From assembly GCA_000004985.1 (NCBI GenBank), contig GG739545.1: a DNA stretch of 1,122 bases. One strand, written 5' to 3'. The first letter of the stretch is position 1; each line of letters opens with the position of its first letter. Below the pieces are notes generated by a model. The model was given only the letters and a program-made list of their open reading frames with translations, searched no databases and was not told the DNA's origin. The position numbers were made by a program, and so were the translations under genes. This DNA comes from Naegleria gruberi. Lineage: Eukaryota. Below are positions 1 to 1,122 of the stretch, one piece after another.

Positions 1-605
1 AATGATAGTTACCATGGACTCGTTCGATGAGTTGTCTTTTTCGAGATGGAAGAACACCATTAGGTTGAAGAGTACCATAGCTATTGGTTGGAACACTAAT
101 TGACTGTCTTATTGAACTGAGATCAGAAGCATCACCATTTGGTTCTCTTTCCATTTTCCTTGCAATTTCTTTCGAATTGTCGAGTAAAAGACTTTCTAAT
201 TTGGAAAGATTATCACCATTCACATTACATATCTCAACAAAATCAAAACCATGTTCGTTAGCGAATTTTAACCCTTCCTCAGTTGAAACGGTTCTATTCT
301 TGATTCCAACATCTGTTTTAGTGGCAATTACAATTACCTTCGCATCAGATCGTTGACTAATTAAATTCAACCATTTAGTAGTACATTGTTCAAATGTATT
401 TCTATTAGAAATATCATAAAGTAAAAAAAAACTATTGGCAACTCTAAGGTACCTTAGCATTATATATTTCTTTCAAGAAGTATCTTTCTTGTCCAGCTGT
501 ATCCCAAAGCTTCATCTTGATAATTACATTATCACCCGATTCATCTAAACTTGTTGTAAACAATTTTGTTCGGAAATCCAAACCAATAGTTGACAAAGAA
601 CCCAT
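1..605 (-). CDS. Rab/Ypt-family small GTPase, 3'-partial (continues past position 1). It reads as two frame segments: minus 605..447 in frame A, which ends at TAG 446..444, and minus 472..1 in the +1 frame. It is possibly a pseudogene or carries a sequencing frameshift, and no P-loop is present.
   Basis: Reverse-complement translation from ATG (605..603) gives MGSLSTIGLDFRTKLFTTSLDESGDNVIIKMKLWDTAGQERYFLKEIYNAKVP*. STIGLDF at 573..593 is a Rab switch-I/effector motif (TIGxDF). DTAGQ at 489..503 is the G3 motif. The +1 frame is open from 472 down to position 1, about 157 codons, and reads KKYIMLRYLRVANSFFFTLLYDISNRNTFEQCTTKWLNLISQRSDAKVIVIATKTDVGIKNRTVSTEEGLKFANEHGFDFVEICNVNGDNLSKLESLLLDNSKEIARKMEREPNGDASDLSSIRQSISVPTNSYGTLQPNGVLPSRKRQLIERVHGNYH... 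Within it, YLRVANS aligns with the Rab YYRGAxG motif, LLYDIS with VYDIT, and TKTD (311..322) with G4 NKxD; FVEICNV is a degenerate G5 (ETSAK). The motif order and spacing fit a Ras-superfamily fold. A 157-codon open frame in AT-rich DNA is very unlikely by chance. Confidence 0.8.
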
Positions 606-769
606 AAAAAATTGACTACCTTACAACCTGAGATTGGGTGTGTGCTATCGGAAGAGCTGCTACTTCCCATTTTTTTAATGATTCTTGCAAGATGTGTGAC
701 ATCTTGTGCATTATAACAGTTTGGTGGCAAACTGAGAACATTGGAGTTAAAAAAAACTCGTAGCCCGTC

Positions 770-781
770 TAGCTCAGTCGG
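770..781 (+). promoter_or_regulatory. Pol III internal promoter A box (TAGCTCAGTCGG)
   Basis: Matches the TRGCNNAGTGG-type A-box consensus at tRNA positions 8-19. Confidence 0.7.
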
Positions 782-813
782 TAGAGCGCAAGGCTCTTAA
801 CCTTGTGGTCGTG

Positions 814-824
814 GGTTCGACCCC
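814..824 (+). promoter_or_regulatory. Pol III internal promoter B box (GGTTCGACCCC)
   Basis: Matches the GGTTCGANNCC B-box consensus in the T-arm. Confidence 0.75.
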
Positions 825-840
825 CACGGTGGGCGATTCA

Positions 841-847
841 TATTTTT
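841..847 (+). terminator. RNA polymerase III terminator (T-run, TATTTTT)
   Basis: A run of five T (843..847) begins 8 nt after the tRNA 3' end. This is the canonical Pol III termination signal for eukaryotic tRNA genes. Confidence 0.6.
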
Positions 848-921
848 GAAAAGTTTAACTTATTTTCAACATTGTACTTTCCCTCCAAAATCTGTTTCAT
901 CATTTCAACAATAAAAAAAGA

Positions 922-1122
922 ATGGCTTCAAATCTTCTTCGACTGGCCGATAGATGTGGATGCTATGATGAGGATGAATTCAATTCTCAGCAACAAGACA
1001 ATGAAATGGATTTAACTAACCTATTATCGGAATCTATGAATATTCAAGATAGAATTTTTCAACTCCATGAAAAGTACGAATTAATGATGGAATATAACAA
1101 GACGTACGATTTGCTCAATGAT
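922..1122 (+). CDS. Hypothetical protein, 5'-terminal 67 codons. The ORF stays open to the window edge, so the gene continues beyond 1122.
   Basis: ATG at 922 sits in an A-rich yeast-type initiation context (AAAAAAAGAATGG, A at -3). Translation is MASNLLRLADRCGCYDEDEFNSQQQDNEMDLTNLLSESMNIQDRIFQLHEKYELMMEYNKTYDLLND with no stop in 67 codons, which is improbable in AT-rich sequence. Codon usage (TTA/TTG Leu, AGA Arg, GAA/GAT) matches the neighbouring GTPase gene. The frame differs from the ORF-track entry 803..1015, and it was missed because it has no stop in the window. I recognise no family. Confidence 0.5.
   Translation, partial: MASNLLRLADRCGCYDEDEFNSQQQDNEMDLTNLLSESMNIQDRIFQLHEKYELMMEYNKTYDLLND

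What the first reader, a model, noticed from the sequence alone, without database searches (positions are those of the whole stretch)
603..762. Rab-family gene has no P-loop (G1) exon between its ATG and the adjacent tRNA gene
The first in-frame ATG (605..603, minus strand) gives a protein that starts MGSLSTIGLDF..., directly at the switch-I/effector region. The 25-35 residues that normally precede it in every Rab, including the GxxxxGK[S/T] phosphate-binding loop, are missing. The same frame is closed by TAA (623..621) 18 nt upstream of the ATG. I translated all three minus-strand frames across 606..760 and none contains a GxxxxGK[S/T] motif. Beyond that lies the tRNA-Lys gene and then a plus-strand gene. 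A GTPase without G1 cannot bind nucleotide. So either exon 1 lies beyond an intron that would have to contain the tRNA gene, which is unusual, or this is an N-terminally truncated copy, a pseudogene or a domesticated fragment. The second reading, taken together with the frameshift and the degenerate G5 (EICN in place of ETSAK), points toward a decaying paralogue. tRNA genes are preferred integration targets of Ty-like retrotransposons in yeasts, and such an insertion or excision event could have removed the 5' end.
Basis: partly seen in the sequence, partly recalled or inferred. Interest (0 to 1): 0.6.

Follow-up and report, generated by a model that had tools for sequence, protein, structure and literature searches.

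The report
Truncated Rab pseudogene in Naegleria contig
The window is a whole 1.1-kb unplaced contig of the amoeba Naegleria gruberi carrying a Rab GTPase gene remnant that has no nucleotide-binding loop and a broken reading frame; specialists had already listed it as a putative pseudogene, so it is ordinary.

Summary
The minus-strand Rab-like gene has no G1/P-loop between its ATG (605..603) and the tRNA-Lys gene (763..835), or anywhere else on the contig. No frame holds G....GK[ST] or even GK[ST]. A profile of the Rab N-terminus scores -1.9 bits, against 30-89 bits for real Rabs.

The organism is not a yeast. The window is identical to an entire 1122-bp scaffold of Naegleria gruberi (XP_002667969.1, "predicted protein, partial"), so the Ty/LTR scenario does not apply.

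Rab homology runs from 617 (frame 1) to QERY at 480, then resumes in another frame at 463. No GT/GC..AG intron repairs this shift. A 1-nt or 10-nt deletion does.

G2, G3 and G4 are intact, and the two homologous frames are stop-free. Damage is therefore limited to loss of the 5' module plus one indel.

Herman et al. 2021 (Table S8) already list this locus as "Rab, putative pseudogene", within a Naegleria Rab family they describe as evolving by birth and death.

The contig is too short to rule out a P-loop exon lying off it, or a sequencing error.

Verdict: a real feature, already known, of low interest.

The parts
480..617 (-). Rab-like segment A, minus frame 1: SQFFMGSL-STIGLDF (G2 Thr 590..588) ... 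KMKLWDTAGQERY (G3 DTAG 503..492). The frame is open from 620 to 447.
   Evidence: A profile HMM built from 109 Rabs aligns positions 34-73 here at 29.6 bits. The Pfam Ras match starts at profile position 30.
603..605 (-). First in-frame ATG. It is an internal Met of the ancestral Rab, not its start codon. As the sequence stands it opens only a 53-codon ORF (605..444).
   Evidence: ORF list. Homology continues upstream of it.
621..623 (-). TAA that closes frame 1. Rab homology ends within four codons of it. Candidate 3' splice sites are TAG 618..616 and CAG 630..628.
   Evidence: Stop map and sequence. Frame 1 has six more stops between 647 and 776.
624..762 (-). Spacer between the Rab remnant and the tRNA gene. 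It holds no G1/P-loop remnant in any frame.
   Evidence: Regex and HMM tests. Its two ORFs have no Pfam hit.
447..472 (-). Frameshift zone inside switch II. Frame 1 must pass to frame 2 here. There are 16 nt between QERY and IMLRYLR where canonical Rabs have 6, a surplus of 10 nt.
   Evidence: No GT/GC..AG intron gives more than 92.5 bits. A 1-nt deletion gives 115 bits, and deleting TTCTTGAAAG (479..470) gives 124 bits.
2..472 (-). Rab-like segment B, minus frame 2: (I)MLRYLRVANSFFLLYDIS ... IATKTD (G4 322..311) ... FVEICNV (G5 position 235..221), then a tail of about 47 residues. It is open to the contig end, so the C-terminus is not on the contig.
   Evidence: HMM positions 76-179 align to 463..143 at 72.4 bits. 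P(157 codons open by chance) is about 6e-6.
763..835 (+). tRNA-Lys(CTT) gene, divergent from the Rab remnant, with a T-run just downstream.
   Evidence: ARAGORN and Rfam RF00005 at 66.4 bits.
922..1122 (+). Unannotated + strand ORF of 67 codons, open to the contig end. It occupies the only remaining space where an upstream Rab exon could lie on this contig.
   Evidence: Translation. P(open) is about 0.009. No homologue and no Pfam family.
1021..1031 (-). The 11-nt mini-exon of the RefSeq model XP_002667969.1. It is joined over a 619-nt 'intron' (1020..402) to exon 401..20. This is a spurious 5' end.
   Evidence: Only this splice reproduces the P0001 sequence exactly.

Best explanation
This is a dead or dying member of the large, fast-turning-over Rab(-like) family of Naegleria gruberi. 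It descends from an ordinary Rab with the G1-G5 order. The DNA on this contig has lost the 5' module (beta1, P-loop, alpha1, about 33 residues), with the break at about 612..623. It also carries an indel in switch II (+1 or +10 nt, within 447..479) that moves the rest of the domain out of frame.

As the sequence stands, the only product from ATG 605 is a 53-residue peptide. Even if the frame were repaired, a domain without the central beta1 strand and the phosphate-binding loop should neither fold as a G domain nor bind nucleotide. That last step is inferred from established GTPase structure.

Shown here: the absence of G1, the frameshift, the lack of any rescuing intron, the organism, and the prior curation as a putative pseudogene.

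Inferred: that both lesions are real mutations in the genome and not assembly faults, and that they are recent, because the remaining 216 homologous codons carry no stop and G2, G3 and G4 are intact.
For: - Identity with N. gruberi XP_002667969.1 on a contig of 1122 bp.
- No P-loop in any of the six frames.
- The N-terminal profile scores at noise level, -1.9 bits against at least 29.9 for real Rabs.
- Frame-2 upstream extensions add no score.
- The Pfam Ras match starts at profile position 30.
- The frameshift cannot be repaired by any GT/GC..AG intron, but is repaired by a 1-nt or 10-nt deletion.
- Frame 1 has seven stops between 623 and 776.
- Herman et al. 2021 manually re-annotated about 90 N. 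gruberi Rab(-like) loci. [quoted passage not shown]
- No intact copy exists. An exhaustive HMMER search of 1.84 billion representatives finds nothing above about 45% identity, and the word-based search tops out at 41%.
Against: - The two homologous frames are free of stops: 59 + 157 codons, where about 16 stops would be expected in random sequence of this composition.
- G2, G3 and G4 are canonical, so apart from the two lesions nothing looks decayed.
- Homology ends right at a possible 3' splice site (TAG 618..616), which also fits a missing upstream exon.
- The contig is tiny and unplaced. A single-base error in low-coverage Sanger sequence could by itself produce the frameshift.
- No read-level, RNA or orthologue data could be consulted.
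Confidence: 0.6

Rival explanations
1. This is a live Rab gene seen through a poor assembly. The P-loop exon lies off the 1122-bp contig, upstream of position 1122, across an intron of more than 500 nt that holds the tRNA-Lys gene and the antisense ORF. Alternatively it lies in an assembly gap. The switch II frameshift is then a base-calling error in a low-coverage scaffold.
For: The window is the entire contig. 216 homologous codons carry no stop, and G2/G3/G4 are intact. Homology stops within four codons of possible acceptors TAG 618..616 and CAG 630..628. A single 1-nt deletion anywhere in 453..474 restores a 115-bit Rab domain. Herman et al. had to go back to unassembled JGI reads for at least one other GTPase, which shows the assembly is incomplete.
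Against: The intron would have to exceed 500 nt and contain a Pol III gene plus a 67-codon ORF, in a genome with 1.7 exons per gene and a mean intron of 203 bp. The sequence before the candidate TAG acceptor (618..616) is not pyrimidine-rich. Even after repair, switch II is 3 residues too long. The curators who had access to the reads still called it a pseudogene and did not extend it. No protein from any transcript or other assembly matches it.
Confidence: 0.27
2. The contig is a chimera: a misassembly or a chimeric clone joins a Rab gene body (1..~620) to an unrelated tRNA locus (~621..1122). The missing P-loop would then be an artefact of the join.
For: The loss of homology at about 612..623 is abrupt, with no remnant beyond it. 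Tiny unplaced scaffolds are where unassemblable reads tend to end up; this is an inference and was not tested.
Against: If it were a chimera, the true Rab locus should exist elsewhere in the assembly. No N. gruberi protein or any other protein is more than about 45% identical. The genome-wide re-annotation, which included new gene models, lists only this partial copy. There is no composition jump at the putative junction.
Confidence: 0.07
3. The protein is functional and unconventional. Either it is a P-loop-less Rab-derived protein starting at MGSLST (or MGSSSSS at ATG 670), both of which fit the N-myristoylation pattern MGxxxS/T, or it is a circularly permuted domain (G2-G3-G4-G5-G1) whose P-loop lies C-terminal, beyond contig position 1. 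In both cases the frameshift would be bypassed or would be an error.
For: Both ATGs are followed by Gly and have Ser/Thr at position 6. The C-terminus is off the contig. A circularly permuted Ras-like domain (cpRAS) does exist in Naegleria.
Against: The ORF from ATG 605 stops after 53 codons. Homology to alpha1-loop residues continues upstream of ATG 605, which marks it as an internal Met. Frame-2 extensions add no score. The order of cpRAS is G3-G4-G5-G1-G2, and that is not met here. Loss of beta1 removes the central strand of the fold (established GTPase structure).
Confidence: 0.03

Closest known systems
Putative Rab pseudogenes of Naegleria spp. (Herman et al. 2021, BMC Biol 19:142, Additional file 10 / Table S8 and Supplementary Material 4)
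   Same: It is literally this locus. XP_002667969.1 is listed as 'Rab', manually corrected, with 'putative pseudogene? yes'. The same table lists other incomplete or frameshifted Rab-like loci in N. gruberi and N. fowleri.
   Different: Their corrected sequence starts at YLRVANS and omits the out-of-frame upstream segment (617..480, STIGLDF...WDTAGQERY) that I find clearly homologous. They do not comment on the missing G1 or the adjacent tRNA.
Canonical Rab GTPases (Pfam PF00071; nearest N. gruberi relatives are Rab11-like, 32-34% identity)
   Same: RabF1 IGLDF, RabF2 KMKLWDTAGQE, RabF5 LLYDIS, G4 TKTD, and the VSTEEG...FA block. The overall order is G2-G3-G4-G5.
   Different: There is no beta1/G1/alpha1. 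Switch II is frameshifted and 3 residues (10 nt) too long. G5 reads CNV instead of SAK. There is a 6-residue insertion in the beta2-beta3 loop. The C-terminal Cys motif cannot be seen.
cpRAS, circularly permuted Ras-like domain (Elias & Novotny 2008, PMC2430557)
   Same: It is a Ras-superfamily domain in Naegleria in which G1 is not at the N-terminus.
   Different: cpRAS has the order G3-G4-G5-G1-G2 within large VWA-containing proteins. Here G2 precedes G3, the sequence is Rab-type, and no downstream G1 is visible.
PseudoGTPases (G-domain proteins that have lost nucleotide binding)
   Same: Loss of a functional G1 motif.
   Different: From general knowledge of this class (no source was consulted here), pseudoGTPases keep an intact ORF and the complete fold, including beta1. 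This locus has neither.

Membership tests
Rab family small GTPase (Ras superfamily, PF00071) | G1 / P-loop GxxxxGK[S/T] on beta1-alpha1 | tested here: not met
   No motif in any of the six frames of the contig. The N-terminal profile scores -1.9 bits against at least 29.9 for real Rabs. The Pfam match starts at profile position 30.
Rab family small GTPase (Ras superfamily, PF00071) | G2 Thr in switch I and G3 DxxGQ | tested here: met
   STIGLDF (Thr 590..588) and WDTAGQE (DTAG 503..492).
Rab family small GTPase (Ras superfamily, PF00071) | G4 [NT]KxD and G5 SA[KL] | tested here: inconclusive
   G4 is TKTD (322..311), which is met. G5 is EICNV, which is not SAK. However, other N. gruberi Rab-likes not flagged as pseudogenes are also degenerate at G5.
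Rab family small GTPase (Ras superfamily, PF00071) | Rab-specific RabF1-F5 motifs | tested here: inconclusive
   F1 IGLDF, F2 KLWDTAGQE and F5 LLYDIS are present. F4 is YLRVA, which is partial. F3 (RFRS) is destroyed by the frameshift and insertion.
Rab family small GTPase (Ras superfamily, PF00071) | C-terminal prenylatable Cys motif | not testable with these tools
   The reading frame runs off the contig at position 2. No longer contig was found.
Pseudogene | Reading frame disrupted relative to homologues, with no intron that repairs it | tested here: met
   Every GT/GC..AG option loses conserved motifs and scores at most 92.5 bits, against 115-124 bits for indel repair. Naegleria introns are about 30 bp or longer: the minimum was set at 30 bp for N. 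fowleri, and the N. gruberi mean is 203 bp.
Pseudogene | Essential part of the parent gene missing | tested here: met
   The beta1/P-loop/alpha1 module is absent from the contig. One caveat applies: the contig is only 1122 bp.
Pseudogene | Relaxed selective constraint and no expression | not testable with these tools
The stop-free frames argue that any relaxation is recent.
cpRAS (circularly permuted Ras-like domain) | Motif order G3-G4-G5-G1-G2 | tested here: not met
   The order here is G2-G3-G4-G5, and no G1 is present.

The most novel reading that the evidence does not exclude
The locus is a live, unusual gene. Either its P-loop exon is spliced in across an intron of more than 0.5 kb that hosts a functional tRNA-Lys gene and an antisense ORF, or the domain is circularly permuted (G2-G3-G4-G5-G1) with G1 encoded beyond the contig end. 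In both cases the switch II frameshift would be a sequencing error.
Probability: 0.05. Interest if true: 0.5.

Novelty: already known. Interest (0 to 1): 0.1.

Why it matters
It matters little beyond annotation. It is one more casualty of the birth-and-death turnover already described for the roughly 90 Rab(-like) loci of N. gruberi.

Two small practical points follow.

- The RefSeq model XP_002667969.1 has a spurious 5' mini-exon and a 619-nt false intron that swallows the tRNA gene.
- The published corrected model can be extended upstream by about 46 residues (switch I to G3) in another frame.

If the rival reading were right, with a live gene and an off-contig exon, it would only show a gap in the 2010 assembly.

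Tried and rejected
- **Tiny introns.** I considered a 14-nt intron at 627..614 and a 10-nt intron at about 453..444 to explain the two frame changes. Both are rejected. They are far below any Naegleria intron size, their boundaries are non-canonical or out of phase, and an exhaustive GT/GC..AG enumeration gives nothing acceptable.
- **GSSSSSDS as a degenerate P-loop.** The sequence encoded after ATG 670 in frame 2 has suggestive spacing to STIG. Chimeric constructs gain no HMM score (31-32.6 bits against 33.4-34.1), and the N-terminal profile stays at noise level.
- **Yeast Ty/solo-LTR scenario.** Rejected because the organism is Naegleria and the contig has no flanking repeats.
- **Searches for a longer contig, orthologue or transcript.** Exact-product look-ups found nothing. 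The metagenome scan found only one relative, at 31% identity. The word-based and exhaustive protein searches found no relative above about 45%.
- **Homologues of the + ORF.** None found.
- **The Cell 2010 genome paper.** It is not held in the library.
- **cpRAS.** Considered and rejected on motif order.
- **Programmed +1 frameshifting at CCT-TAG-A.** I considered this on inspection only. It is not a known slippery context and nothing supports it.

Full report
**What the window is.**
The best protein hit to the conceptual translation is a 131-aa "predicted protein, partial [Naegleria gruberi]" at 100% identity. Its only contig is 1122 bases long, exactly the length of the window. Its accessions are EFC35225.1 and XP_002667969.1. 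The window is therefore an entire tiny unplaced scaffold of the N. gruberi NEG-M assembly, not a yeast locus. Its composition (about 35% G+C) fits the published 33-35% for that genome.

**Checking the observation.**
ATG 605..603 opens MGSLSTIGLDF, and TAA 623..621 closes that frame.
- tRNA-Lys(CTT) lies at 763..835 on the + strand (ARAGORN; Rfam at 66.4 bits).
- Pfam Ras (PF00071) matches at E 5.6e-22, but only from profile position 30 of 162.
- No frame of the whole contig contains G....GK[ST], a relaxed version of it, or even GK[ST].
- I built a profile from 109 full-length Rab hits. Its full version aligns positions 34-73 to minus frame 1 (617..480) and positions 76-179 to minus frame 2 (463..143). 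Nothing aligns to positions 1-33.
- A 46-node profile of beta1/P-loop/alpha1 alone scores -1.9 bits on everything upstream of STIG. Shuffles give a median of -1.1 and a 95th percentile of 1.4. Real Rab N-termini score 29.9-88.6 bits.

The G1 module is truly absent from the contig, not just mutated.

**Where the homology stops.**
The alignment runs a few codons upstream of the ATG. Q-F (614..609) lines up with the conserved E/T-F/Y that precedes switch I in N. gruberi Rab11 and in the profile. ATG 605 is therefore an internal methionine, and the break lies between about 612 and the TAA at 623. Upstream of that, frame 1 has six more stops within 150 nt. Two possible 3' splice sites sit at the break, TAG 618..616 and CAG 630..628. 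No exon they could join is on the contig. The stretch 836..921 and the antisense of the + ORF hold no P-loop either.

**The second lesion.**
Frame 1 ends at TAG 446..444, and homology resumes in frame 2, which opens after TGA 475..473. I enumerated every GT/GC..AG pair that could shift the frame. All of them delete DTAGQ or YLRVA and score at most 92.5 bits. Removing one base anywhere in 453..474 gives 112-115 bits, and removing the ten bases TTCTTGAAAG (479..470) gives 124 bits with canonical Rab spacing. Naegleria introns average 126-203 bp, and 30 bp was taken as the practical minimum for N. fowleri. This is an indel, not an intron.

**State of the rest of the gene.**
- G2 (Thr 590..588), G3 (DTAG 503..492) and G4 (TKTD 322..311) are intact.
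- G5 is EICNV. This is not diagnostic, because other N. gruberi Rab-likes not flagged as pseudogenes read ECSV, ETCAY or EISCK there.
- The two homologous frames hold 59 + 157 codons without a stop. The chance of 157 open codons at this composition is about 6e-6.
- The gene has no close relative anywhere. The word-based search of 5.8 billion proteins tops out at 41% identity, and the exhaustive HMMER search of 1.84 billion representatives at about 45%. The N. gruberi Rabs whose sequences are printed in Table S8 reach 32-34%. The one metagenomic locus found is 31% identical.

It is therefore an old, divergent, lineage-specific Rab that stayed under constraint until recently. It is not a long-decayed duplicate.

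**What is already known.**
Herman et al. 2021 (PMC8296547) re-annotated all Ras-superfamily genes of N. gruberi by hand.
- Table S8 lists [quoted passage not shown].
- Their supplementary text reports nearly 90 Rab(-like) loci in N. gruberi. [quoted passage not shown]

My analysis adds the out-of-frame upstream segment (617..480), which their corrected model omits. It also shows that the RefSeq model is built from an 11-nt mini-exon at 1031..1021 spliced over a 619-nt false intron (1020..402) that contains the tRNA gene and half of the Rab domain.

**Mechanism and rivals.**
1. **Truncated pseudogene (about 0.6).** The locus is a recently disabled Rab. It has lost its first about 33 codons and carries an indel in switch II, so it can encode at most a 53-residue peptide from ATG 605. 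Even if repaired, it would lack the central beta1 strand and the phosphate-binding loop, which is incompatible with a G-domain fold. That last point is inferred from established GTPase structure.
2. **Live gene, poor assembly (about 0.27).** The gene is alive and the tiny contig misleads: an off-contig first exon plus a one-base sequencing error. The stop-free frames and the splice-site-like break favour this. Against it are the required intron of more than 500 nt containing a tRNA gene and a 67-codon ORF, the over-long switch II even after repair, and the curators' own judgement.
3. **Chimeric contig (about 0.07).** This is unlikely because no second copy of the Rab body exists in any database searched.
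4. **Functional P-loop-less or circularly permuted protein (about 0.03).** This is contradicted by the 53-codon ORF and by homology upstream of the ATG. The order of cpRAS, G3-G4-G5-G1-G2, does not fit.

**What the tRNA has to do with it.**
Nothing demonstrable. The tRNA gene is divergent from the Rab remnant, 142-157 nt away, and is followed after 86 nt by a + strand ORF. This is a normal compact arrangement. No direct or inverted repeats suggesting a mobile element flank it. The yeast Ty analogy does not transfer.

**Verdict.**
The pseudogene interpretation is partly supported and already in the literature, and the proposed mechanism is unsupported. The feature is ordinary, an already-flagged Rab pseudogene on a fragmentary scaffold. 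What remains unresolved is whether the lesions are in the genome or only in the assembly, and only reads, contig extension or RNA data can settle that.

Noticed in passing
window 20..401 and 1021..1031 (minus strand): The RefSeq/JGI model XP_002667969.1 is reproduced only by joining an 11-nt mini-exon (1031..1021, antisense inside the + ORF) over a 619-nt GT..AG 'intron' (1020..402) to exon 401..20. That false intron contains the tRNA-Lys gene and the switch I-G3 half of the Rab domain. The 5' end of the public model is an artefact.
   Followed up: yes
window 480..617 (minus strand, frame 1): The manually corrected sequence in Herman et al. 2021 Table S8 starts at YLRVANS. It leaves out this clearly homologous upstream segment (STIGLDF...WDTAGQERY), which lies in a different frame.
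   Followed up: yes
window 922..1122 (+ strand): A 67-codon ORF (MASNLLRLADRCGCYDEDEF...) is open to the contig end and preceded by an A-rich stretch. It is not annotated, has no homologue among 5.8 billion proteins and no Pfam family. It is probably the 5' end of an orphan Naegleria gene.
   Followed up: partly
window 548..796 (minus strand, frame 2): An 83-codon open frame runs antisense through the tRNA gene and over the start of the Rab remnant. It contains ATG 670, which opens MGSSSSSDS, a pattern resembling a myristoylation signal. It has no homology and no HMM signal, and is probably a chance ORF in a G+C-richer stretch.
   Followed up: partly
window 463..482 (minus strand): Switch II holds 16 nt between QERY and IMLRYLR where canonical Rabs have 6. 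Removing TTCTTGAAAG (479..470) restores both the frame and canonical spacing better than a 1-nt fix does. No clean tandem duplication accounts for the extra 10 nt.
   Followed up: partly
window 763..847 (+ strand): By eye, the tRNA-Lys(CTT) shows eukaryote-type A-box-like (TAGCTCAGTCGG) and B-box-like (GGTTCGACCCC) elements and a T5 run 7 nt downstream. On inspection it looks like a functional Pol III gene, sitting 142-157 nt from the dead Rab.
   Followed up: no
window 521..544 (minus strand): Relative to other Rabs, the beta2-beta3 loop carries a 6-residue insertion (about SLDESGDN). This shows that the gene was already a divergent lineage-specific Rab before it was disabled.
   Followed up: no
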